Source of the DNA: Pachysolen tannophilus NRRL Y-2460
Lineage: Eukaryota
Length of the DNA stretch: 64,000 nt
Assembly: GCA_001661245.1 (NCBI GenBank)
Contig: KV454011.1
Span: 898,426-962,425 of the forward strand
Direction: 5' to 3'
Shown here: positions 4,938 through 61,202 of the stretch, piece by piece
Layout of the letters: each line of letters starts with the position of its first letter
Position numbering within the stretch: the first letter of the stretch is position 1
Made by a program: the position numbers and the translations under genes
The notes under the pieces: generated by a model
What the model saw: only the letters and a program-made list of their open reading frames with translations
Told to the model about the DNA's origin: nothing
Databases searched by the model: none

Positions 4938-6256
4938 TTAGTGTTCGCCTCTCTTGCGTAATTGAGAGATGTGGTACAATGGATAAAACAGTTTTGTGGT
5001 GTCAACATCACAGATACTATTTTGTGAGATAGAATCTTGTAAATTTGCATCGGCTTCAGTGTTGGAAAATTGACCTGTTTGAGCATTTATTTTGAAAAAT
5101 TTTAATAATTTGTTGTTATCGTTATCGAACGATAAAATTAAATGGTCTCCTGTTAAATCTGATGTTATATCGACTATGCTATTGTCTGTTTCTAATAATT
5201 GATCGAAAACAATTTTCCCACTTTCTTCTAAATTAAGTATTAAAAGTGAATGATTTTTTTCTGTTAATACACATAATTTCAGGAAATCATTTTTTTTCAA
5301 TGCAATAATCTTAACCACATTTACTAGTTCTGTATCTTTGGATATGTATTCTTTGATGTCAAATCTGAAAAGTAAGCAGTCGTTGGAAGTTTCTTTGGAC
5401 CAATCCCAACTTCTAATGTACTCATCACCTCCCCCGCTTATCAATAAATCGGGTTTCCACCAAGGTATACATAATGATGAGACAAACTCCTCATGATCGA
5501 AAAGCCACTTATCAATCACATAGGAAAGAGGGAAATTTGTCACTCTTATATGTTCGTCTCTATCGGCAGTAATAATAAACTCTTTTTGATTTCCACCTTC
5601 TCTAGTACTGATTCCTATTACTGCATCGGTCAACATTGAAACATGACCTAAAATTGGTACCAAATCTTTTGTAGGAATGATTTCTTGTGAAGCAATTGGT
5701 AAAGAATAAGCATCTCCAAATTTGTCACCAACAATTATAAACTCATCGTTATAATTGGTAGAAATTGTACATGGTCTTTTAGGAAATGGTTGCCTCTTGA
5801 TCAATTTCAATGCTGGTGGTACTCTTTGATCATCTCCAGAACTGCCATCAAATAACGAAAATACAACTATGGCCTTATCTGAATCGGTGGTACCGATTAA
5901 ATACTGCTCATTTCTAGAAAGTTTTAAAGTCCTGATATAATTATATACAGTTGGAGCTCCCGCACCAGGTACTGGAATCTTGGGAATCTTATTCTTTTTT
6001 TTTTCTTTTTCTTTGGACCGTCACTCACCCCACCCTCATGAGTTTCTTCTATTTCTTTCTGTTGCTGTTCCAATTCCAACTGTTTGATCTTTTCCAGCTG
6101 CTGTTGTTTTAAAGTTATATCGACATCCACATCATCAGTCCATGTGCTCACTAGTTCACCTGTACAAGTCTTGAAAATTTGAATATGATTCTTCACTGAT
6201 GTGAAAAGGTACTCCCCCTTTTTATCCGTGACTATGATTTGAAATGGATGTTTCAT
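4938..6256 (-). CDS. TRM82: tRNA m7G46 methyltransferase WD40 subunit Trm82 (~439 aa); apparent -1 frameshift at A10 run 5995-6004
   Basis: N-terminus MKHPFQ; after a -1 shift the frame reads KIPVPGAGAPTVYNYIR...TTDSDK and continues into KRQPFPKRP, GDKFGDAY, LGHVSMLTD, ADRDEHIR, LRKRGEH. Joins ORFs 5924-6280 and 4938-5810. Confidence 0.88.
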
Positions 6257-6354
6257 GGCTGATATATAATCAAAGGACATATATATATATATATATAATA
6301 TAAATATTTTACGAAACAGTTTTTTTTTCGGTACTAAATCTTGTTAGTTTCTCT

Positions 6355-6907: not shown

Positions 6908-8356
<1,449 letters not shown>

Positions 8357-28400: not shown

Positions 28401-29285
28401 GCCTGTTCACAAACAATTTGAGATAAAGAAGGCTCCAAGAAAATCCAATATTTTTCCATAAAACAATTAAGCCAATCCATTGTTTCGTAATCATTTTCAA
28501 TATTCAAAACTGAAAATTCTCTTTGAGCCTGATCACGTATTAATGATCTATACTTCCGGATAGAAGTACGATACAGAATAGAAAATAACAAGATTATATA
28601 AAACAAAGGAGCAACAGAAAACTTCAACTTACCAATTAAAAACGAAATTATACCACCTAGCCCCAATAAGACTACCGAATGATACCAGTCACCGTAAAAC
28701 TTATCTGGAAGGTATTCATCCAATAAAGTTGCCCTACTCAACAAATCAACCAATTCATCATCTGGCGTTAACACATCTTCCTCCTGCCAACCACCAACTT
28801 CTTTCCATCCTCTAAAAGTAGGAGCAATTGTCTCTCTCTTTGGGCGCTCTGCCGCTACAATGACCTCGGGATCAATAGTTTTGCTCTCCTGCTTCACAGA
28901 AGCTTTACCTTTAAAAGTATCGCTCCTGGAAGCATTGCTTTTAGATGCATTGCTCTTTTTAGCAGAGGCATCGCTATTGGAAGCATTCCTCTTGGAAGCT
29001 TCATCTTTAATAATATCAGGTTGCTATCTATATCGTTAGTAACTTCTATCCTTTCTTTAAAATATACTTCAAATCAGTTTTTTAGTTTCAAATCATATAA
29101 ACGTACCTTAACAACAGGTTGGGTGTGCAGCTATAAAAGACAAAAATCATGCAGCAGTTAGTATCAAAACTAATATTAACTTAAATTGAAATAAATAAAT
29201 AAATAAATAAAAAAAAAAAAAAAAATGGTTCAATTCAAACCAATAGTTCAATCCATAAAACTTATAAACTTACATTCGTAGCCAT
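25442..29285 (-). CDS. TCB1: Tricalbin (SMP + multiple C2 domains), Tcb1/Tcb2 type; exons 29285-29274, 29130-29107, 29023-25442 (~1205 aa)
   Basis: GWKEVGGW, TM hairpin, SMP (ETMDWLN..FTAGTKPPR), C2 motifs (DPYI, KIDPYV, ADSNGKSDPYV, DWD); two 5' micro-exons supply the ATG in frame. Confidence 0.85.
29024..29106 (-). other. TCB intron 2 (83 nt)
   Basis: GTACGT donor at 29106, TACTAAC at 29041-29035, TAGATAG acceptor; the distal AG keeps the frame. Confidence 0.85.
29131..29273 (-). other. TCB intron 1 (143 nt)
   Basis: GTAAGT donor at 29273, TACTAAC at 29163-29157, TTTTATAG acceptor. Confidence 0.85.
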
Positions 29286-36856: not shown

Positions 36857-38716
36857 CTATGGGAAAGGATTTGTAGTATTACCAATTGCTTGGCAATATC
36901 CCTTGGCATCCCCAACAGCACATTCATTTAGAAACATATTTTTCTCACTAATGCGGGTTCTATCATCACCTTCATCTATGTAGTCGATATTATTTGCCAA
37001 GATTTTTAGAATATTTTTATAGAAGCCTCTTACATGCAATACTATGACATTACTATCTGCTTCGGAGAATGTTATTCCCATATAATCGTCTTTTATGCAC
37101 AGTGTATCTCCACAAAGTTTAGCTTCATTTTCATTCAGTTGATCTTCTGTGAGAAAATCCCAATAGGCAATACTGTTTGGTATTAAGACGCTAATACCTC
37201 CATCACATATATTGTTTGCTTCTGTATTCCATGGTAAAACATCTATATTGAAATCCATTAAACTACTAACGTATTCTATCTGGAAGAAATCGTTATTCAT
37301 ATTTTTGGAAAAAATTAAGAAATGTGGTCTATAAGCTGTAGACACACATCCACATTCATCATTATGTGATCTTGGAAATCCTAACCAATATTGTCTATCT
37401 AAAGTATCAATTCTCATATTTTTAGGGAAAAATTTTTGAGGAATTTCAACTAAATTTGTTCCACCTCTCATACTACCAACAGTATTATTATCAATTTCTT
37501 CAGTAACAAAAATCTTATTACAAATACCATCACTTAATGAACATTTAACAACTAATAAAGGATCTAAATTATAAACAAATCCAATATGAGTTTGTTGATC
37601 AACAGAATCAAAAAATGGAACCCAATTTTTTTCAACACCTTTAACTTCAGAATTTGCTACCCGTAATAATAAAAAATTTGAATCTTCATCTGAAAAAGGT
37701 TTGAAAACATGCATACCACGTTTATCTTCAATATCTTTATTGACCATATTGAAAACAACAATTGGTTCTTGATCATCTTCACCTTGAGAATTTTTAAAAT
37801 TACGTACAAGAATTCTAGGATCTTCTGGACCCATATAACGATTTCTTGCATAAATTGGAACTTTTAAAATCATTGGAAAATTTAATGATAATCTTCTTCC
37901 ATTATTATTTACATTTAACCTATAATTTTGTAATTCATTCCAATTTCTATCAAATAATTGAACATAACCTAAACTAATAGTTGGTTTACTTTTTACACCA
38001 ACTCTTGAATATATGACTCTACTAACCATTAAATGAACTTTATATTTTGCAAGCCAAACACTACTACCTCCAAAAACCCACCATTTTCTTGTAATTATTT
38101 CATCTTCAGTTAATGGAATAAAATTTTCATGTTCTATAAGATCATCTTCTTCAGTATATTCATGTTCATCTTGTTCTTCTTCTTCACTTGAAACTGGATT
38201 TTTCTCTCCTAAAAAGCAATATTTGACCATTGGGTATTCTTCTCTCATTGTAGAAATTAATTGTCTAATTGAATGTAAATCTTGTTCAAATACTGTCTTG
38301 GGTGTAACTTCCAAATGACTTTGAATTTCAATATCTTCACATAATGACATCAATTGCAGCTCTAAAGTTGGTGGTATCCTAAGGTTTCTTCTATCTCTTG
38401 ATTTAAAACCATAACCATGGAAATCATAACCAGTATAATTATTTATTAATACTGGAATACTTATAGGTGAACTTGGAGAAATTCTACTAAAATCAACAAA
38501 TGCCAACTTATAATGATTCAAATTGTCCACAAGAAAAGAATAATTTAATAATACTATGGATATTGTCACAAGATAAACATTCAATAATTTTCTATATTTC
38601 TTTAACGTTGAACCACTAACAAATCTTGCCAATATATTAGAAAAATTAATCAAGTATATTAATAGGGCCACCAATGGCAGGACAACTGCTAGCTTGTATA
38701 AAAATGGACTGTCCAT
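36857..38716 (-). CDS. Beta-1,2-mannosyltransferase (Bmt/GT91/DUF3589 family), intact paralogue A
   Basis: N-terminal TM anchor; WWVFGGSSVWL..HLMVSRVIY, GPEDPRIL, EPIVVFNM, EKNWVPFF, MRGGTNL, CGC..YRPH, SVLIPNSIAYWD, DYMGITFSEAD. Confidence 0.9.
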   Translation of the reverse strand: MDSPFLYKLAVVLPLVALLIYLINFSNILARFVSGSTLKKYRKLLNVYLVTISIVLLNYSFLVDNLNHYKLAFVDFSRISPSSPISIPVLINNYTGYDFHGYGFKSRDRRNLRIPPTLELQLMSLCEDIEIQSHLEVTPKTVFEQDLHSIRQLISTMREEYPMVKYCFLGEKNPVSSEEEEQDEHEYTEEDDLIEHENFIPLTEDEIITRKWWVFGGSSVWLAKYKVHLMVSRVIYSRVGVKSKPTISLGYVQLFDRNWNELQNYRLNVNNNGRRLSLNFPMILKVPIYARNRYMGPEDPRILVRNFKNSQGEDDQEPIVVFNMVNKDIEDKRGMHVFKPFSDEDSNFLLLRVANSEVKGVEKNWVPFFDSVDQQTHIGFVYNLDPLLVVKCSLSDGICNKIFVTEEIDNNTVGSMRGGTNLVEIPQKFFPKNMRIDTLDRQYWLGFPRSHNDECGCVSTAYRPHFLIFSKNMNNDFFQIEYVSSLMDFNIDVLPWNTEANNICDGGISVLIPNSIAYWDFLTEDQLNENEAKLCGDTLCIKDDYMGITFSEADSNVIVLHVRGFYKNILKILANNIDYIDEGDDRTRISEKNMFLNECAVGDAKGYCQAIGNTTNPFP

Positions 38717-39757: not shown

Positions 39758-40443
39758 ATTTCCTCGTTCTCATAATAAAGATTGTGGTTGTACTACAAAC
39801 ACTTATAGACCTCATTTTCTCATCTTATCCAAAGATTTAGAAACTGGAGTCTATCGCATTGAGTATCTTAGCAATTTAATGGATTTTAGAATTGATGTCT
39901 TGGCATGGGATATTGATAGAACAACTTGTGAAAGTCGTAAAAGTGTTTTGATCCCAAATAGCGTTGCTTACTGGGATTTCGTCAAGGATCAAAGAACTAA
40001 TGAGATTCAAGATGATTACATGGGAGTAACTTTTTCCGAAGCAGATAACAATGTAGTCTTGGTGCATATAAAGGGACTCTACAGTAACATTATTAAAATA
40101 TTAAGAAATAATAGTGACAGGGGCTCTTCTTCTTCTTCTTCTTCTTCTTCTACAAAATCAAAGAAAGAGGAGAAAAATGAAACTAGAAATTTAAATAAAA
40201 TGCAAGCATTGGCAACCAAAAAAAATAGTTTCTTAAATGGTTGTGCAGTTGCAAATGCAAAAGAGTATTGCGAGACACAGTTTCGATAAATTCCATTCAT
40301 ATAATATTTTTATTATTATTTTTATTATTATTATTTTTTTTTTTTCATTATTATTATTAAATAATTAGCTAAAGTAGATAATAGTAGAGTTAGTTTAATT
40401 TAGTTAATATAGAGAACAAATTTAAAAAGAAGAAAAAAATAAT
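39758..40443. other. 686-bp inversion splitting BMT paralogue B
   Basis: Ends ATT (39758-60) and AAT (40441-43); re-inversion gives YWIG|FPRSH and a 612-aa ORF. Confidence 0.88.
39759..40289 (+). pseudogene. Beta-1,2-mannosyltransferase paralogue B, C-terminal 176 aa, inverted relative to its N-terminal part
   Basis: Open frame from 39759 reads FPRSHNKDCGCTTNTYRPHFLIL...SVLIPNSVAYWD...DYMGVTFSEAD...CAVANAKEYC, collinear with paralogue A from FPRSH onward. Confidence 0.9.
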
Positions 40444-41750
40444 CCAATCCAATATTGTTTCTGTACAAGTTCAATGTTTACATTTGTTGGAAGATTTTCT
40501 TTATCAATTTCAATTAAATTTGTACCACCTCTCATGGCACCAATTTTTGATTTTTCTTCAATTTCTGTTTTTACCAGCAGTTTTTGTGATCCAGAATCTA
40601 ATTTATTTACTCTAATACAATTCCCATCTGCTAAAGAACATTTAAGAATTTCTAAAGGGTCCAAATTATAAACAAAACTTAAATGTGATTGCTGATCTTT
40701 TGAATCAAAAAATGGAACCCAATTTTTTTCAACAGGTTTAGGAGTTGAATTTTTAATTTTTAATAATAATAAACTAGAATTTCTTCTTTCTTCATCACTA
40801 ATTGCATCAAAAGGTTTAAAAATATGCATACCTCTCTTGCCATCAATTTCCTGATTAAGCATATTGAATACTACTATTGGTTCTTCCTCTGTACCACCAT
40901 CTGGAGTTCTATAAGTCCTGCTTAGAATCCTTGGGTCTTCAGGTCCCATTGTCTTTTCCATATCTGCCATTGGAACTTTTAAAATTTGTGGGAATTTCAT
41001 AACTGCACTATTTCTCTTTAAGATCATTGAAAAATTTTTTAATTCATTCCAATGATTATCAAATGCTTGTAAATATAATAAACTAATCACTGGGTTTGAT
41101 TTAACACCATCATTTGAGTATATGACTCGACTAACCATGAAATGTATTTGATAACGTGAAAGCCAAACACTTGAACCACCAAAAACCCACCATTTCCTAT
41201 TTAAAATATCTTGTTCACTTTCATTATCACCATCTTGGAAACATTTTTTCCCCTCTGGGTATTCACCATTAAGCAGCATTTTCTTTATTAAATCTCTAAT
41301 TTCTTTTAAATCTTGGTTAAATTCAGATTTTGGAGTAACTTTAATACCATTTTCTATTTGTAATTGCTCACAAGTCAATTCATCACCATTATTAGAAGAA
41401 ATAGATGATAAACTACTATCACCAAATGCAAAAGGTTTATAACCTTTAAACCCATAATCTGTATAATTTCCCAGAACAACATGTGAACTTATTGGAGAAT
41501 TTGGTCTAGTACAACCATAATTCACAACAGCTAATTTATATAAATTTTCTGCATTTAATAAGAGAGCACAATTAATAGAAATAGCAATAAGTGAAATTAC
41601 TGAAATATTCACCACTTTCTTATACCTCTTTAAATTAACCTCATTATGATGTCTACCAAAAAAATCTGTAAAATTTATAAAATAAAGTAAAAGAACAAGT
41701 ATTGGAATTGTAATGAAAAGTATATATTTAAGTGAAAAATCCATCATCAT
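40443..41750 (-). pseudogene. Beta-1,2-mannosyltransferase paralogue B, N-terminal 436 aa, truncated at YWIG by the inversion
   Basis: Same motifs as paralogue A up to QYWIG, then AT-rich non-homologous LFFSSF*. Confidence 0.9.
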
Positions 41751-51543: not shown

Positions 51544-52123
51544 TTAAATGTAGAGCACCTTGGCCGCAATTCTCCTTGTGTTCAGGAGCATAAGCAGACA
51601 AAACAAGGTAAAAAAAAAAATTTTTTTTTTTTTTTTGATGCGATCGGTAAAATATTGAGCATCAAATCTATATTATTTATACTGGTTTTCAACCTATTAT
51701 AATCATTTAATATAGTTAATTAATTATACTTCAATCTTATTTATTTTTATTTTTAAAAGATAATAAGGAAGTGAAAAGATTATGATTACTTACTAGTATT
51801 TCTATTCTTTTTTTTTTTCCTCTTTCCCATAAACTTTTTACTTGACAATTATAATAATTTTTTTGTTACATTTTGCTAAGTTAGTTAGAAAAATAAGACA
51901 AGACACAATTAACTGTTATTAGAAAATTTTAAGCGGCGCTTAAGGAAATTTGTCCAAATTTATAATTTAATTGTGATTTGATTGAAGTTTTGTCTTTTAA
52001 CTTTCAACAGATGGTTATTTATCTAGATGAATATCGGAAAAAGACATCGGCGGTTAAACAAGAAAGCATTTATAGACGTTGTTGATAAAATAAATAAAAC
52101 AAACAAATATTGTACTGATCAAG

Positions 52124-54885
52124 ATGGCAACAAGTACTGAAACAAGTACTCCTAGTAGTGGCACTTTGGAAACTAGTACAACCACGAGTCAAATAACTAT
52201 TACAAATTTAAGAACTCAGTTATATGGTTTACTTAATAGTAAATATGTTGATGATTCGTTGTTATTGGGATCAATTACATTTGCACAAAATAAGTTTGAA
52301 AATTTCATAGCAAAAGATTTAGCATTACAAAAAGAGAATGAAGGAGAAGATAATGATTACGAATCGAATGAGTTGTTGGATAAGTTATGGGTAGAGTTTC
52401 ATTATCCAATAATAAAATATTTCCAGACACAGTTCCGTTATTTGGTTAGAACTGATCATAAAGAAAAAAAAATGTAGAATTAAGGAAATTATTCAATAAT
52501 TTCCATAAATTCATCAAAAAATTTAGTGATTTTTACATTTCATTACTAAATAAAATTTTAATTAATTATAACTTGTCTAAATGTTTACCTATTACCAAAA
52601 TATATAAACAATTTAACATTAATACAGAATTGATCTCAAAAAATTCACAAACTATACCACTGCAAAATTCAAATTTAATTTCAACATTAGTTTATTTCAT
52701 ACATAAATCAATCTTATCGTTAGCAGATTTGTCGAGATATAGGTCAATTATAGCGAGAACTTATTTACCATCATCATCATTATCTAAGAAAGATTTAGAT
52801 TTCAATTTTAATTATTCTGTTGAATTATACAAGTTGTGTATTTTAGTTTTACCCGCATTTGGTGAACCTTTTGTTCATACTGCTATCATTGATAATTTTA
52901 AAAATGATAAATTCAATGTAATTTATAATTTTTTAAGATCAACAATGACTAGAATACCATCTGATTTAGGATTTAACAATTTGATAAATATTTTACAAAA
53001 ATCTGATAATAATCAAAATTCTATAATTTTAGAATATAATGAAATTAGTACAATTGTTGATCCAGAAAAAATTAATAGATTGAAATTAATCAAGCTACAA
53101 TTTTTATGTCTTTTCAATTATTATTTTTTGCCTCTGGATTGGAAACTTTCACAAGGAATTTTAATTAATGGAGTTTCAGTTAAAGATTTGGAAAATGCTT
53201 TTTTCCAAAATTTATTAACTTGGGACTATATTGGGAAACCAGTTCATAATGATGTTATTTTCAAACAATTGATTATGCTTATAAGTGGGTTTAAATTATT
53301 AACGAGCAATATTTTTGATGATTCAAATAAAAAAATTGATCGATCATCAAATATCGCAAGTTTTTTCATAAAATTTATGTTTAAATTCTTTGATTGTATA
53401 TTCCAAATATCAATGGAAAATTGGAATGTAGATCAACAAACTGAGAAAATTGATTTACCATTTTTACCTATTTTGAGAATCATATTATGTTGGTTTAAAG
53501 AAAATAGAGCAGGTTTACAATTTTTAAAACATAATAATGTCACTTTAATCAAATTGTGCAAAGTTTTAAATTTATACTATCGTTATATGAATAAAAATAT
53601 CAATTTTTTCATTGATAAATTGGCTTTATATACATTTGATGATAAATTCACTTCAATAAGTGAGTTAATAAGTGTTAAACCCAAAAGATTGAGATTTTTC
53701 AAAGAAGATGTGTTATTGAAAGAATTTATTCCATTAACTAATTTTTTGAAAGATTTTGATGATGGTTCTTTTTTCAAAGATACTACAGAAATTAACTATT
53801 TAAAGCTAATTGGAGAATTACCTAAAGATGAATATGATAAGCACTTGTCTAATAAATCTGATGAAAATTGTTTAAGAATGTTGGCTATTAGTAATTTAGG
53901 TAAAAAAATTGTTCTTGCTGCAGCCAACGGAACTTCAAATGAATTCATCAAGTTCAATGAAAAGCTATGCTTATTTGAATTTCAAAAAGAAATGATTCAT
54001 GTTTCTAAATCTCTGAAATTGACGCTGCCTCGCGATGAAAATAAAAATGAAGATTCTGAGAGAAAGAGTGTAAGCAAATTAAACAACGATAGTAATAAAA
54101 ATAAGAAACTTAAAAAGAACAGTAAACAGGTCAAAGATAAGGATTATAATGATAAAAGTATTACATCTAAAACATCAGGAAACGGAAATTCGCAGAAATC
54201 CTTGTCCCTGGTTGGAGAAGTAACTGATACTTTGAATAATGGAACTAATGGAAGAATCGACTATATAAATAAAAATAGAGTAATGACTGTGGAAGAGATT
54301 GAAAAAGAGCATGAAATAGAAGAAAACGAAAAGGTTGCAAGAATGGTGAGTAGCATATTGGATTTCGCTGATGAAGATGAAGTTTTTAACCTGTTGAACA
54401 AAGGTGGAAACAATTCTAGTATCAATACAAAAGACATCGCTAGTACTTTGTCTGCCACTTCTTCGAATATCATTAAAGATGGTGGTAACAGTTCTTTATC
54501 TGCGACTCCTACCAGTTTACATCAACTGCAATTTTCTCAAGCATTCTCAGATGATTACCAACAACAGTTGCTGCAATACTATCGTTGGTTATCCAACGGA
54601 CAGCAGCAGCAATTATTACCAGCATTTCAGGCAAACCCAAACATGCAATTTACACCTCAGAAGACGATATCTCAACAACTTGATATTGGATCTAGCGCTA
54701 GTAATTTAGCAAGCCAGTATTCCCAATATGGAAACCTTCAGCAGAACAACAATGCAACAAATCTTCAGCAAAATTATCTAAATAGCAATAATATTCAGTC
54801 GGGGGTTTCTCAAAACCAGTATCATCAGTATCATAATTATCATCAATATGACACTCAAACTGGGAATAATGGCTCCCGTTTTTAA
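52124..54885 (+). CDS. EBS1: Ebs1/Est1 (SMG7-like 14-3-3/TPR) protein (~920 aa); apparent -1 frameshift at A9 run 52464-52472
   Basis: LLDKLWVEFHYPIIKYF, then after a -1 shift NVELRKL...FY, LADLSRYR, LPAFGEPF, YNFLRS, FKEDVLLKEF; Q/N tail; convergent with UME6 as in S. cerevisiae. Confidence 0.78.
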
Positions 54886-55126
54886 ACTTAAAAAATAAAA
54901 TAACTAAATATTGAATTTTTCCTTTTTTTTTTTTTTTTTTTGGAGAAAGAATCTTATTTTTATAGATTTTTTTTGAGTTATACATACGAGATTGTAGGTG
55001 AATATTTAAGTAAATATATCTTCGATTATATAATGAATTTTATTTATATGAGGTAGTATAGTCTTAATATTGTTCGTTACTCATGGATTGAAGTGGATGT
55101 AAGAAAAAATTAAAAAAATATTAAAG

Positions 55127-55199
55127 CACCCATGCTGGGAGTCGAACCCAGAATCTTTTGATTAGAAGTCAAACGCGTTAACCATTACGCTACACGGGC
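55127..55199 (-). tRNA. tRNA-Arg(UCU)
   Basis: GCCCGTGTAGCGTAATGGTTAACGCGTTTGACTTCTAATCAAAAGATTCTGGGTTCGACTCCCAGCATGGGTG; TCT anticodon. Confidence 0.95.
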
Positions 55200-55451
55200 T
55201 TTCAATATATCTGTTTCGAAGCCGGTACTACTCTTGAGGAGTAGAAGCATCCATTATATTATATATTATTTGATCATTAGAAGAGAAACTTTTATTAAAT
55301 TATAAATATAATCTTTATATAGCAAAAAAGTAATTGACAATGAATAGAAAAAAAAAATTTTGGAATTCAGCAACAAAATATTTGGAAAATGGAAAAACAA
55401 TAGAAGGGCAAAAATTATACTTTGTTTTTGCAATCTTTCTATATTCTTATG

Positions 55452-56444
55452 TCAAACAGTCTTCTTACTTCTACTGCTCATCCTTAATTTTTTTTTCAAA
55501 TTAGTAACCTCTTTGATTTCCTCCATTCGTTTTTTCGCAGCCTTCTTATTATTCATATAGATAGGTCTTTCATCATTGTAACCATCACATTTTAGTCCTA
55601 GTCTAGAACATTCAGAACATAATGGTTTTTCTTCTGGGCATTTTTTTCTGCGTAACCTGCAAGTCCAACAGCCATTTCTTGACCTAGCAGTTGAAAGTTT
55701 AGTGTAGGTTGTCTCCATTTTCTTTGAGCGTTTGACTGACTTTGTTTTTTTAGCAGAATGATCATCGACTTCTTTATGATCACCTTCGTCTATTTCAGGG
55801 TCAAATGTTTCTGTTTGAGACAGTTCTGAAGATGGCTTAATAGTCTTAGTATTCTTTGAAGATGGACGTGATGTTTCTGAGAACGATTCATTAAAATAAT
55901 ATTTTGGTTTAGAAATTTTTCTTTTCGGTCTTTGTGAAATCAAATTTTTAGGTGACTCTTTGTTTGTAGTCGATGCTGATGCTGAAGTTGTGAAATTTAC
56001 TTCGTTTTCTTTAATCGTAGCCTTAGTAGATAATTTTCTTTTCTTTTTCTTGACTTGTGAATTATCTTGTTTGAATTTCCTTGTTAAAGTTTTTCTGCTC
56101 TTGATTTCTTGTTTTAAAGGTGAAGACAAGGAAATTTTACTCTTATTATTGAAGTCTCTTAGCTTTTTGAAATTTTTTTTACTAGGTTCCTGATTTTTCG
56201 AAATACTATTCTCTTGTCTTGTCGAATTCACATTTGACTCTTTTAAAATTCTGTTGGACTTTTCTTCGGTTCCAATGTCATCTTTAGTTTTAAAAACTTC
56301 CTTTTTCTTTCTTGTTTGATTGCTAGTTTCAGACTCTGTTGCTGAAGATTCAATTGAGTCACTAAGAAAATTCTGAGATGAAGAAGTAAAATGTACACTA
56401 TGAGTTAAGTTGGTTGAAGTTTCGATGATGTTACTTTTATTCAA
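55452..56444 (-). pseudogene. UME6: UME6 C-terminal part (330 aa, Zn2Cys6 cluster) with no N-terminal ATG
   Basis: RSRNGCWTCRLRRKKCPEEKPLCSECSRLGLKC...MEEIKEVT at the extreme C-terminus, as in Ume6; the frame opens right after a TGA and has no ATG until far downstream. Confidence 0.8.
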
Positions 56445-57530
56445 TCACCAGTATCGTATTAATCTTCTTAGTTAATATTTTCGTTCCTTTTATTTCTAAT
56501 CTAATTGTTTTTCTGCTTATCTAGCATAGATTGCTTTTTTGTTTGTTTTTTTTGTTTTTTTTCTTTAATTTTATAAGGTTTTCACCTTTTTGTCGGCAAT
56601 ACATGACTAGTAAAGTATTAATTAGAAAACAAACCGATTTTATGGAGATGGTTAAAAACCGTAGTAGTTTACTATCACTGTCAGCCCCCATGTATACATT
56701 TTATGATGATGCAAATAACATATCAGATACTGAGAAGACTGATTCTCCGAGTCAAGTTATGAGTTCGATGAACACCTCAATTTCTTCTCGCAAACATATT
56801 TCATCTGCAAACAGTTCAAAACTCCAATTGGATAAACTTATGAAGGCAATAGATCTGGAAAAATATCTTGCTGAAGATGATCGGGAATTAATCAACATGG
56901 ATTTGAATAATGAACCTCCTTTGCAAGAGGATATCAGTTATATAAGACCTTCATCACCCGTAATTGTCAACGTTGCTAATAAGGAAAATAATGATCCAAT
57001 GGAGCAGATCAATGGCGAAAATTATCACATGTTTAATGGTGTGAGTAACGGTATCACTGATTCATTAGGAAATAGTGGACAAAACGATAAAAACACTTTA
57101 TTGCCATCAAATTTACTATCAATTGAGTATGATACTCTTCAGGAAAAACATCAACACCATCATGGAGTTGATTCAACAAATGGTACTACTATTCTAAGCG
57201 GTAGTTACACCTCTTTATATGTCTCAAATAAGCATGACCATAATGGTACTAGTACTATGTGGTCAAGGTTGCCGACTCGTGATCACAGTTTTTATGCTCA
57301 AGAATGTGGTTCACCTCTAAAAAACACAGGATTTATTAGAGAAAACTTAGCATCTTATTATCCGTTAAGTAGTTCTTCTTCTTTACCAACGTCTAGGGAT
57401 GTTACAAGATTACCTCAGTCGGCCCTGGGCCCACAAAACACTGACGTTACTCAACGTTCAATGTCCGTCAAGAAAAGTAAAAATATCACAACTTTTCAAA
57501 AAAAGTCAGGAGGAGTCTCTACAAGATTGA
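56441..57530. other. 1090-bp inversion splitting UME6
   Basis: TCAATC (56441-46) and GATTGA (57525-30) inverted repeat; re-inversion gives STR-L-NKSN and a 638-aa ORF. Confidence 0.78.
56603..57529 (+). pseudogene. UME6: Inferred UME6 N-terminal part (~308 aa, low complexity), inverted
   Basis: ATG at 56603; S/N-rich protein-like sequence up to STRL, then a non-protein-like tail; joins the zinc-cluster half in frame at GATTGA. Confidence 0.72.
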
Positions 57531-57885
57531 GACAAAGAATATTTCAAAAAAAAGAGATGTTTTCTTGTTCTTATATAGTATGCGCAATCTTCCGCACAAG
57601 TCTGCATTTCATGCATTTTTTTTTAAATTTTTGCTCTTTCGCGCTACGACACTTGAAGTGTTGTATCGCCAATAAAGGAATACTACTGTAACTACAATAT
57701 ATAAATATAAAAAATAGAGAGAATCTTCAAAAATGAAAATGAATAATATTAATACAATTCTAAATAAGCTTCAAAATAATCATTAACAAATCTCATAACT
57801 ATATACTGGGCACTTAATTTTTCTTAAGCTTTCTTTTCTTTTTTTTTTTTTTTTTTTTTTTCTTTGCGGCGAGGATGATCGAAAA

Positions 57886-60575
57886 CTAATATACAATTAA
57901 TCTTTCATCATCTGGTTTTGGAGTTATCCCCGCCGTATATGCTAAAAAAGAATTATTATAATCTGTAGTATTAGCTGATTTTGTAAGGTCACCGGCACTA
58001 CCAAATGGGACCATTGTTTTGGAAGAAATAGGAGGTGGAACGATATTTAAAGATGATGATTCTCTTGGTGAAAAAGGTATTTCATACTCATTTTTATAGA
58101 AAACCTCTGGAATCTTTGATTCTATTAAATTCCTTGCATCACGTTCTTGACTTTCAGCAGATTTATTGCCTCCCCTTGAAATTGGATTTTCATTCAAACA
58201 TTCCTCGCTATACCATGATGGTAAATTTTGGAAAATGTTAATAGGTTGAGTCCATTCAATATCTTCATCAATTTCCTTATCTATCACTTCATGTTGTCTG
58301 AAAGCTGCAGCTTCTCCAGCAGTGCTCAAATCTTTATTGTTAAAAGAAGCTCTTTCATAGGTATCATGGAAATATTTAATTTGAACCAATTTTTCATCGT
58401 TAAATCTAACTCCATGAGATGCTGCCTTACGAACTTTTCTCTTTGGCAGGTCTTCACCACCTTTCATTCTTAATATACTAACTAAACCATTTGAATCCTT
58501 AACTCTTTCTTCCTGTTCTGTGGTTTCATTTTTGGATTGGGAGTCACTTGTTTTTGCTTCCTCATTTTTCTGGAATTCAGTCTTGTTCTTAGCAACAAAA
58601 TCTTTAAATGACCAAACTTTACTATTATTGTTGTTGGAAGAATTATCTGATAAATTTGCAGGTTTATTATTGTTAGATGAATTAACTGATGAGTCCACCT
58701 TGATAGCTTTGTTTCCTTGAGTAATTTTTTTGGAATCGTTAATAAAAATTGATGATTTCGTAGCATAAGGAGCAGAAACAACAGGTTTAATACCAGCTTC
58801 TGTGAAAAAAGATCTTTGACCTGAAGAAGATGTTGATGAAGGTAAATTACTTGTATTAGAAGGTGTAGATGTAGACGTGCTATTCAGTGACACTGAGGAT
58901 TGTTTATGAAGTGAAGATTTTGGAGACGTTGATGTTTTGTCAACAAATTTTAAAAATTCTTCCGCTTGTTTTTTAATCTTTTCATCAAATACATTTTTAT
59001 CCTTAATCTTTTCGATAAATTTTAAAAATTGTAGACGTTCTAACGTCTGTTTCCTTAACTCCATTATTTTGAAAATTGAAATTATTGAAGATACAGCAGC
59101 AGAATCTTTTTCTCTTAAATCTGACTTAAACCAATTTAAAATTCTCAAAAAGTACTTTGTATTTAAAGCCATATAAGACCAAAATTCGAGATTTTTTATA
59201 GCAGTAGCCGAATAACGTAACACAACATAACGATAATCTGGTTTCTTATGGAAGGTCTTTTCAGGTATAGCCAAAATGATTTTACCTATCCTATCGCTTA
59301 ATTTTTCATGATTTTTACCATAAAATTTAATATTATCTATAATTAACTTTTTCAATTCACTTTCAGCTCCACCATTCAGTTTCTCTTCCATTAACTTTGT
59401 CAAGTTAGACAATTCTTTTTCAAATTTGATATCATTTGATATAGATTCTTCAGATTTATTATTTTCTAAAACTTCAGTTTTCTGTTTCTTTGACCCAACT
59501 AATTCTTCCATGCTTGAACGTTTAAGACCATTTGAATCACTCGGAAGTTGCAGAGATAGAGATAAAGACAGAGGCTTACCTGTAACCGATTTGGAATCAG
59601 ATTCTGAAGATGATAACTGAGATAATTCAGATTTCGGTGTTGAAAATGTAAGAACATTATTTTTTTTCAGTGAAGATTTCTGCTTTATCTGCAATTTATT
59701 TGATTCATTATTTGAAATGATCTCACTTGGCTCAGAGGATAAAATTTTCTTTTTAGTTGTCTTTTTCACTTTAGTATTTTTAGCATTACCTTCTTCTTGT
59801 TTCTGATTTGGAGGAGGTATAAATCCTGATTTAGGTTTCAACGATTCATTTTCACCAAGTTGTCGGAGTGGGGTAATATTACTACGTAGAGAGTTTCCTT
59901 CAATTTTTTTTGGAAGCACTTGTGGTATGTCAATCGGATGATAAAAATTTTGAACACTCTGTGGTTGTAGTTGTTGTTGCTGCTGTTGCTGTTGCTGTGG
60001 TTGGTGCTGTTGTTGTACAATTTGAGGCAGTTGACCAATCATAGCACTAAGATGTTGGGTATCATTATTGTCTGGAATAGAACCCCCTTGTCCTCCCATA
60101 TCTTTAAGCATGCCATTATTATAAGGAACATTAGTCATTTGTTGATACAGAAGAATGGCGTTTAAATTGTCCAAATTGTTAATTGATGCCAGTGGATTAT
60201 CTCTATTTGGCTGTACTGGCTGAATATAATACGGCTGCTGGTATAGCTGTTGCGGCTTTTGCTGAAGTTGTTGTTGGTTATTGTTATTATAATAAGGATA
60301 AAAGTCTAAATTGTCAGTAACGTCTTGATCATGGAGCTTACCATTATAATTTAAAAAAACTTACTTGGCTGCTGTTGCTGTTGCTGCTGTTGCTGCTGCT
60401 GTTGCTGCGAAGGGAAAACTTGGAATGAATTCATCAGCGGCATTTGCATCACAGGACCTTGATTCTGTCCTTGTATACTGTTTTGCATCACATTATTGCT
60501 GTTATTACTAACATTATTAACTATTTGCAGCTTATTTGGGAAATAATTCGAATAGTTGCTATTATTAAAATCCAT
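57886..60575 (-). CDS. REF2: Ref2/Ppn1 (PNUTS-like) PP1-targeting RNA 3'-end factor; exons 60575-60365 and 60305-57886 (~876 aa)
   Basis: Q/N-rich N-terminus; SILR + GVRF (RVxF-like) + VQIKYF; EDIEW..P..RGG; divergent from MSS116, matching the REF2 position in S. cerevisiae. Confidence 0.65.
60306..60364 (-). other. Intron in the REF2-like gene (59 nt)
   Basis: GTAAGT donor, TACTGAC branch, TTTAG acceptor; joins ORF 60351-60575 in frame to the main ORF. Confidence 0.85.
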
Positions 60576-61202
60576 CTTTTTTTGTTTTTTTTTCTATTTT
60601 AAATCAATTAAAACACCCAAATATCTCTCTTTATAGATCAATACGAAAAAGCTTACTTATTTAGTCTTAACTCCTTCCGCACTGAAATATACTTGTATTT
60701 ATAGTTGGGACTTGTAATTTTACTCTCAAATAAAATTGTGTCCCGATATTAAGGTCTTTACTTTCTGCTGTATATCGATATATGTATATATAACAAAAGG
60801 CAGTAGGAATAAGAATAATAGCTTTCTTAATATATAATAGTAAAATGCTATAAGATGAAACGATAACAAATAAAAAAAAAAAAAAAAAGAAAAAAAAATT
60901 CAATATAAGTAAAAAATTAAATTTTTACCAATATAATTCTACTTTTTACTTCTAAAATACTTTTAATCGATAGATTGATTGATACAACAATAATATTCCT
61001 CTTGTTTTAATTTAATTAATAGTTATTATGTTATGTTAAGTAAATTTTTTCTCTTTAAATATAAAAATTAAAAAAAATTAAAAAAAATTAAAAAAAAAAA
61101 TACTCGCCACAAATTACTTCGAAAAGTAATAATTAATGGGGCTAATTTAATTACCAATTTAAGGCATTTTTGTGGCTAGATTTTATTTATTTCTTTTCTC
61201 TT

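What the first reader, a model, noticed from the sequence alone, without database searches (positions are those of the whole stretch)
55452..57691. UME6 split by a 1090-bp inversion at a GATTGA inverted repeat
The zinc-cluster ORF has no proper start and begins TGA TTG AAT AAA. A divergent orphan ORF starts only about 160 bp away and degenerates after ACA AGA TTG. Both points carry GATTGA in inverted orientation, extending to GATTGAnnnAAAG (10 of 13 bases match), with the TTG codon in the same register. Re-inversion gives a 638-aa protein with a long disordered N-terminus and C-terminal Zn2Cys6, the Ume6 architecture. It also puts 57531-57885 upstream as a promoter. An annotation pipeline would call two unrelated genes.
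Basis: partly seen in the sequence, partly recalled or inferred. Interest (0 to 1): 0.8.

Follow-up and report, generated by a model that had tools for sequence, protein, structure and literature searches.

The report
Yeast UME6 flipped by assembly error
A yeast regulator gene looks cut in two because a 1.1-kb piece lies backwards in this genome assembly, but public sequencing data show the gene whole, so this is most likely an assembly error that spoils two database protein records rather than a genetic switch.

Summary
The two halves do belong to one gene. In 4 of 4 runs laid (2 samples, 2 studies), contigs carry window 56437-57531 in the opposite orientation. They give one open 637-codon frame with a C-terminal Zn2Cys6 cluster, the Ume6-family layout. 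No contig crosses the window's own joints. The proposed mechanism fails: the read-defined breaks fall just outside both GATTGA copies, with only 1 nt of ambiguity. A 6-nt inverted word this close to random ends occurs in 6-23% of trials. The flip is 1095 bp and the protein 637 aa, not 1090 bp and 638 aa. A second gene-splitting flip (about 684 bp, a beta-mannosyltransferase) lies 17 kb away (not read-tested). Earlier, unchecked scan notes report the same pattern elsewhere in this genome (RPS22, REG1, ADE2, another regulator). The best reading is a recurrent orientation error in this Pachysolen tannophilus assembly (0.85); a lesion private to the sequenced clone gets 0.11 and a rare switch 0.03. 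The practical result is that database records P0001 (333 aa) and P0006 (302 aa) are halves of one protein.

The parts
56437..57531 (.). Segment that lies inverted in the window relative to public read contigs (1095 bp; may be drawn as 56436-57532, 1-nt ambiguity; no base lost or gained)
   Evidence: tables 5 and 8: joints 57531/56436 and 57532/56437, opposite strands, both=1, 4 of 4 runs
56603..57531 (+). 5' half of the UME6-family gene: ATG at 56603, codons 1-309 and two bases of codon 310; Ser/Asn/Thr-rich, no Pfam family
   Evidence: database record P0001 (333 aa, starts at Met30, includes the false tail)
55452..56436 (-). 3' half of the gene: last base of codon 310, codons 311-637 and the stop; Lys/Ser-rich linker, then the zinc cluster
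   Evidence: database record P0006 (302 aa)
55569..55673 (-). Zn(2)-Cys(6) cluster (PF00172); cysteines span residues 566-593 of 637, 44 residues before the end
56437..56602 (+). Proximal 166 bp upstream of the ATG, inside the flipped piece; two T8 runs
57532..57885 (-). Distal upstream region in the read orientation (520 bp in all from the REF2-like stop to the ATG; TATA-like words at -212 and -338). In the window it is read on + as the 52-codon non-coding-like tail of the orphan ORF
   Evidence: promoter role is inference
56441..56446 (-). GATTGA, left copy; 4 nt inside the left break, not the break itself
57525..57530 (+). GATTGA, right copy; 1 nt inside the right break, not the break itself
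56342..56604 (-). Rescue gene model behind record P0006: a 6-codon first exon at 56604-56586 and a 244-nt intron opening GTGAAA with no TACTAAC; it can exist only in the window's orientation
55126..55199 (-). tRNA-Arg(UCU) between the EBS1/EST1-like gene and the 3' end of the zinc-cluster gene (context)

Best explanation
The living yeast has one intact UME6-family gene of 637 codons on the minus strand. It lies between an EBS1/EST1-like gene plus tRNA-Arg and a REF2-like gene, and most likely works like other Ume6 proteins: a C-terminal Zn2Cys6 cluster binds promoter DNA and a long low-complexity N-terminal part recruits co-regulators (function inferred from the family, not shown). The split seen in the window is an orientation error in the assembly: a 1095-bp unit was laid in backwards and sealed without a gap, so no base is lost and no repeat is needed. 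The same error recurs in this assembly. Shown: read contigs are intact, the flip is balanced, the breaks are not at the repeat, and a second flip splits another gene nearby. Inferred: that the fault lies in assembly or finishing rather than in the DNA of the sequenced clone. The step that caused it is not identified.
For:: 4 of 4 runs (2 samples, 2 studies) have a contig joining 57531(+) to 56436(-) with 255 letters on the shorter side and word depth 70-178, and a contig joining 57532(-) to 56437(+) with 89 letters on the shorter side and depth 52-130. No other letters, no gaps, and none of the 12 records laid crosses a window-type joint; the frame is open, 637 aa; the repeat is at chance level; a second flip in the same 64 kb splits a PF12141 gene at profile position 348|348, and a 684-bp flip restores it in register with its intact paralogue; three further genes are broken by frameshifts at A or T runs, and the one N sits in a T run, so the assembly is imperfect locally; of the 37 best hits, 26 carry the cluster within 100 aa of the C-terminus; 21 of the 25 other than P0006 have 294-580 residues before it, which fits 565 here. 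Leads only: unchecked notes report like flips in RPS22, REG1, ADE2 and another regulator.
Against: Contigs drop rare variants, so a minority of flipped molecules is not excluded. It is not known whether any laid run is the DNA from which the window was assembled. No single contig spans the whole stretch: two contigs meet in the T-rich tract 56526-56575, which the tool skipped. The second flip and the three frameshifts were not read-tested. The N-terminal half has no significant match in any of 30 C-terminal-cluster relatives (best E 0.079), so relatives support the layout but not the joining itself. No known assembly step that makes gapless balanced flips was found in print.
Confidence: 0.85

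Rival explanations
1. A real but private lesion: two double-strand breaks in the clone or subculture that was assembled were rejoined end to end in the wrong orientation, without homology, and killed the gene in that clone only.
For: A balanced flip with 1 nt of ambiguity is what blunt end-joining can give (general knowledge, recalled). The laid runs may come from other cultures (cannot tell). The public annotation carries the same flip, but it rests on the same sequence.
Against: The window differs from all four runs at no single base over the covered part of 55300-58200, yet would need two gene-breaking flips in 64 kb and, by unchecked notes, at least four more elsewhere, including a ribosomal protein gene and ADE2.
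Confidence: 0.11
2. A reversible switch: the segment holding the proximal promoter and 5' half of UME6 inverts in a minority of cells, by recombination at or near GATTGA, and turns the regulator off, as the MAT region of this species flips.
For: P. tannophilus inverts an 8-kb MAT region between 2-kb inverted repeats under nitrogen depletion (PMC6692504, passages read). Contigs hide rare variants. Both GATTGA copies stay inverted near the ends in either orientation.
Against: The breaks are outside the repeat and offset unequally (4 and 1 nt), and exchange within GATTGA would give a joint that is not the one in the reads. There is 1 nt of homology against 2 kb at MAT. The 6-mer is at chance level. 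Contigs run through both intact joints unbroken in 4 of 4 runs. The second flip has different end sequences.
Confidence: 0.03
3. Two real genes, as annotated: an orphan 333-aa protein and a 302-aa zinc-cluster protein whose start comes from a small upstream exon.
For: Both records exist in NCBI and UniRef.
Against: Each is a singleton from one contig. The modelled intron opens GTGAAA and has no TACTAAC, whereas the tricalbin-like gene in the window shows GTACGT and TACTAAC. The DNA arrangement that the model needs is absent from 4 of 4 runs.
Confidence: 0.01

Closest known systems
Ume6 family of Zn2Cys6 regulators (S. cerevisiae Ume6, C. glabrata Zcf11, C. albicans Ume6 and Ume7)
   Same: C-terminal zinc cluster after a long, poorly conserved N-terminal part, followed by a short tail (PMC12012894, passages read; PMC10251200, part 1 of 2 read). 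The 491-aa Ogataea cluster that is 68% identical over the cluster region (P0021) has a member named UME6 in O. parapolymorpha (P0131). The neighbour is an EST1-family gene; EBS1 beside UME6, with NUP42, MSS116 and REF2 close by in S. cerevisiae, is recalled, and a paper search for it gave 0.
   Different: No S. cerevisiae or C. albicans Ume6 was named among the 120 listed hits. The N-terminal half matches no relative. Ume6 against Ume7 orthology was not resolved. In the window the gene is split.
Flip/flop (FF1) mating-type inversion of Pachysolen tannophilus
   Same: Same species; a segment seen in two orientations.
   Different: MAT is an 8-kb region between 2-kb inverted repeats and is inducible (PMC6692504, passages). 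Here the piece is 1.1 kb, shares 1 nt at its ends, cuts a coding frame, and only one orientation is seen in reads.
Other gene-splitting micro-inversions noted by this scan in the same genome (RPS22/snR44, REG1, ADE2, an HxnR-like regulator)
   Same: 0.5-1.1 kb, clean ends, halves otherwise intact (notes, unchecked).
   Different: Here both joints were tested against read contigs of two studies and found intact. Of those notes only the ADE2 one mentions independent sequencing data.

Membership tests
Ume6 family | Zn2Cys6 cluster | tested here: met
   PF00172, E 4e-09, above the cut-off
Ume6 family | Cluster at the C-terminus, followed by a short basic tail | tested here: met
   residues 566-593 of 637, 44 after; feature as stated in PMC12012894 and PMC10251200
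Ume6 family | Long low-complexity N-terminal region in the same frame | tested here: met
   read contigs join the halves; open frame; residues 1-309 are 15% Ser, 9% Asn, 8% Thr. Disorder itself was not predicted.
Ume6 family | Closest yeast relatives are annotated UME6 | tested here: inconclusive
   one member (P0131) of the P0021 cluster is named UME6; the other named members in the 10 clusters looked up are hypothetical or generic; Ume7 not excluded
Ume6 family | Gene order beside EBS1/EST1 | tested here: inconclusive
   EST1-family neighbour shown; the S. cerevisiae order is recalled; 0 of 21 related loci held a neighbour of the window
Ume6 family | Sin3- and Ime1-binding segments; binding to URS1 | not tested
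   no Ume6 chain was matched in solved structures by either half; binding needs bench work
Repeat-mediated invertible switch (FF1 type or site-specific) | Inverted repeats at the breakpoints | tested here: not met
   1-nt ambiguity; GATTGA lies inside both ends and is at chance level
Repeat-mediated invertible switch (FF1 type or site-specific) | Both orientations present in cultures | tested here: not met
   only the intact orientation in 4 of 4 runs; contigs cannot show rare variants
Repeat-mediated invertible switch (FF1 type or site-specific) | Orientation changes with condition and alters expression | not testable with these tools
   no RNA holder listed; needs cultures
Assembly orientation error | Arrangement absent from reads of the same organism | tested here: met
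   4 of 4 runs laid, of 5 holders listed
Assembly orientation error | Arrangement absent from the very reads used for the assembly | not testable with these tools
   run identities are coded; only contigs were available
Assembly orientation error | Recurs at unrelated loci | tested here: met
   second flip in the window, shown by paralogue and profile only

The most novel reading that the evidence does not exclude
P. tannophilus cultures carry a minority of molecules with clean 0.5-1.1 kb inversions, made without homology at many loci. The assembly caught some of them, and at UME6 the flip separates the promoter and N-terminal half from the DNA-binding half and switches the regulator off. Contigs hide rare variants, so this is not excluded.
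Probability: 0.03. Interest if true: 0.75.

Novelty: not a real feature. Interest (0 to 1): 0.2.

Why it matters
As biology it matters little: an ordinary Ume6-family gene. As curation it matters somewhat. Two public singleton records (P0001; P0006 = PACTADRAFT_430, ODV97940.1) are halves of one 637-aa protein that the searches here did not find in the databases. A third record (P0123, 136 aa) is a fragment from the second flip. If such flips recur across this assembly, gene-loss, orphan-gene and trans-splicing claims for the model CUG-Ala yeast need a read check. It also tells the scan that other split-by-inversion notes in this genome are probably the same error.

Tried and rejected
No whole genome was held, so flips could not be counted genome-wide. 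No RNA holder listed; this says nothing on expression. Five holders had 0.93 of the words; four were laid and X2 was not; X6 and X7 held next to none. The promoter-side contig has 60-74% of the depth of the gene contig in all four runs. I rejected this as a sign of mixed orientation, because that DNA exists in either orientation and is the most AT-rich piece (GC 0.26-0.27 against 0.31-0.36). Full-length database homologue: the N half against proteins of 635-2000 aa gave 0 of 2809 candidates; against 1.84 billion representatives it gave only P0001; the Zn region against 579-2000 aa gave 4 of 176, none from this species. The N half against 30 C-terminal-cluster relatives gave nothing significant. 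Solved structures gave only weak Gal4-type matches for the Zn half and nothing credible for the N half. The ESM Atlas gave generic Zn_clus clusters at 0.80-0.82. Metagenome scan: 21 loci from 465 candidates; L001 holds a contiguous 570-codon frame with a C-terminal cluster; none showed synteny. The repeat finder listed no convincing inverted pair at the breaks among the 25 longest of 907. Exact look-ups: 4 of 8 sequences found. Papers: 'Pachysolen tannophilus + genome assembly + inversion' 1 paper, on MAT; 'Pachysolen + UME6' 0; small inversions as assembly artefacts 3 papers, 1 listed, on C. elegans (listing only); micro-inversion and misassembly terms 2, on a gap closer (listing only); 'Chr4-0496' 0; 'YDR207C + YDR206W' 0. 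These searches found no printed report of the flip; most subscription papers are not in the library, and no supplements were read. No fold or complex was run, since it would not separate the explanations.

Full report
Setting. The window is AT-rich yeast DNA (GC 0.25-0.36). A database protein identical to the orphan ORF except that four CTG codons are read as Ala (P0001), and one identical to the zinc-cluster half and named for Pachysolen tannophilus (P0006), identify the species. CUG = Ala in this yeast is reported in PMC4937558 (passages read). Around the finding lie a zinc-finger FG-repeat protein (NUP42-like), an EST1-family gene, tRNA-Arg, the zinc-cluster frame, a REF2-like gene and a DEAD-box helicase. 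The NUP42, REF2 and MSS116 labels and the matching S. cerevisiae gene order are recalled, not from a call.

Observation. The repeat is not unusual. Random pairs of ends 1095 bp apart share an inverted word of 6 nt or more in 8.6%, 12.9% and 22.9% of 3000 draws at half-widths of 10, 12 and 15 nt, and in 6.5% of 2750 local pairs; 36 in-register 6-mers link the start of the Zn frame to the orphan ORF.

Reads decide the structure. Five public runs of two studies hold 0.93 of the stretch's words; four were laid. In 4 of 4, one contig runs 56576-57531 on + and continues 56436-55300 on - (X4 draws the same joint one base over), and a second runs 57823-57532 on - and continues 56437-56525 on +. No base is lost or gained, one base fits either side, there are no other letters or gaps, and none of the 12 records crosses the window's own joints. 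The segment 56437-57531 (1095 bp) is therefore reversed in the window. In the read orientation the frame is 309 codons from 56603, one hybrid codon, and 327 codons from 56435 down: 637 aa without a stop, with the cluster at 566-593 and 520 bp upstream to the REF2-like stop. Limits: contigs hide rare variants, the two contigs meet in a skipped T-rich tract, three of the four runs are one sample, and it is unknown whether any is the assembly's own DNA.

The gene. Of the 37 best hits to the cluster region, 26 have the cluster within 100 aa of the C-terminus, and 21 of the 25 other than P0006 have 294-580 residues before it; the other 11 have it near the N-terminus. An Ogataea parapolymorpha member of one close cluster is named UME6. 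The C-terminal position is described as the distinguishing Ume6 trait in PMC12012894 (passages), and PMC10251200 (part 1 of 2) shows that a second homologue, Ume7, shares it, so 'Ume6 family' is safer than strict orthology. Against a clean case from relatives: the N-terminal half matches none of 30 such proteins (best E 0.079), no full-length record of this species was found, and 0 of 21 metagenome loci showed synteny.

Error or lesion. After unchecked notes of this scan reported similar flips in RPS22, REG1, ADE2 and another regulator of the same genome, I looked for more in the window. A beta-mannosyltransferase gene has profile positions 1-348 on - and 348-486 on +; its intact paralogue aligns 1-447 to the minus piece and 447-610 to the plus piece, and a flip of about 39759-40442 (684 bp, 3-nt ambiguity) restores 612 codons in register. 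This one was not read-tested. Three more genes are broken at A or T runs. Two flips in 64 kb, with no single-base difference from four runs over the laid stretch, fit a recurrent assembly or finishing fault better than a clone that suffered many clean inversions. Which step caused it is not shown; a small contig placed backwards and sealed without a gap is my inference. A programmed switch like the species' MAT inversion (8 kb between 2-kb repeats; PMC6692504, passages) fails on repeats and on the presence of both orientations.

Verdict. Assembly error 0.85, private lesion 0.11, rare switch 0.03, two real genes 0.01. Novelty: not a real feature. Interest 0.2, for curation and as a control for other split-gene notes in this genome. 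The paper searches listed under Tried and rejected found no printed report of it.

Noticed in passing
window 39759-41750: Second gene-splitting inversion: a beta-mannosyltransferase (PF12141) has its first 348 profile positions on - (41750 to about 40443) and the rest on + (39759-40289). A flip of about 684 bp restores a 612-codon frame in register with the intact paralogue at 36857-38716. The plus-strand fragment is a 136-aa database record (P0123). Not read-tested.
   Followed up: partly
window 52094-54885: EBS1/EST1-like gene in two overlapping frames (PF10374 positions 2-33 and 33-134), shifted at an A run near 52470; probably a homopolymer error.
   Followed up: partly
window 4938-6343: WD40 gene (TRM82-like, label recalled) in two overlapping minus-strand frames, shifted at a Lys-rich A run near 6000-6020.
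   Followed up: partly
window 57886-60593: REF2-like gene (label recalled; no Pfam hit): the 824-codon frame lacks a start, and an 80-codon Gln-rich frame upstream meets it at a T7 run near 60355. GTAAGT at the same place could instead be a splice donor.
   Followed up: partly
window 6908-8284: RVB1 has Ser at residue 176 in its otherwise conserved stretch, and the exact protein is not in the collection; a base error or another gene model, not examined.
   Followed up: no
window 39467: The window's single N lies inside a T run, about 290 bp from the left end of the second flip.
   Followed up: no
window 29023-29200: Tricalbin-like gene has an upstream intron with GTACGT donor and TACTAAC branch, useful as a local example of canonical splicing signals.
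   Followed up: no
L001 1183-2895: Contiguous 570-codon frame with a C-terminal cluster 64% identical to the window's over 72 residues; same layout as the read-supported gene, different neighbours.
   Followed up: partly
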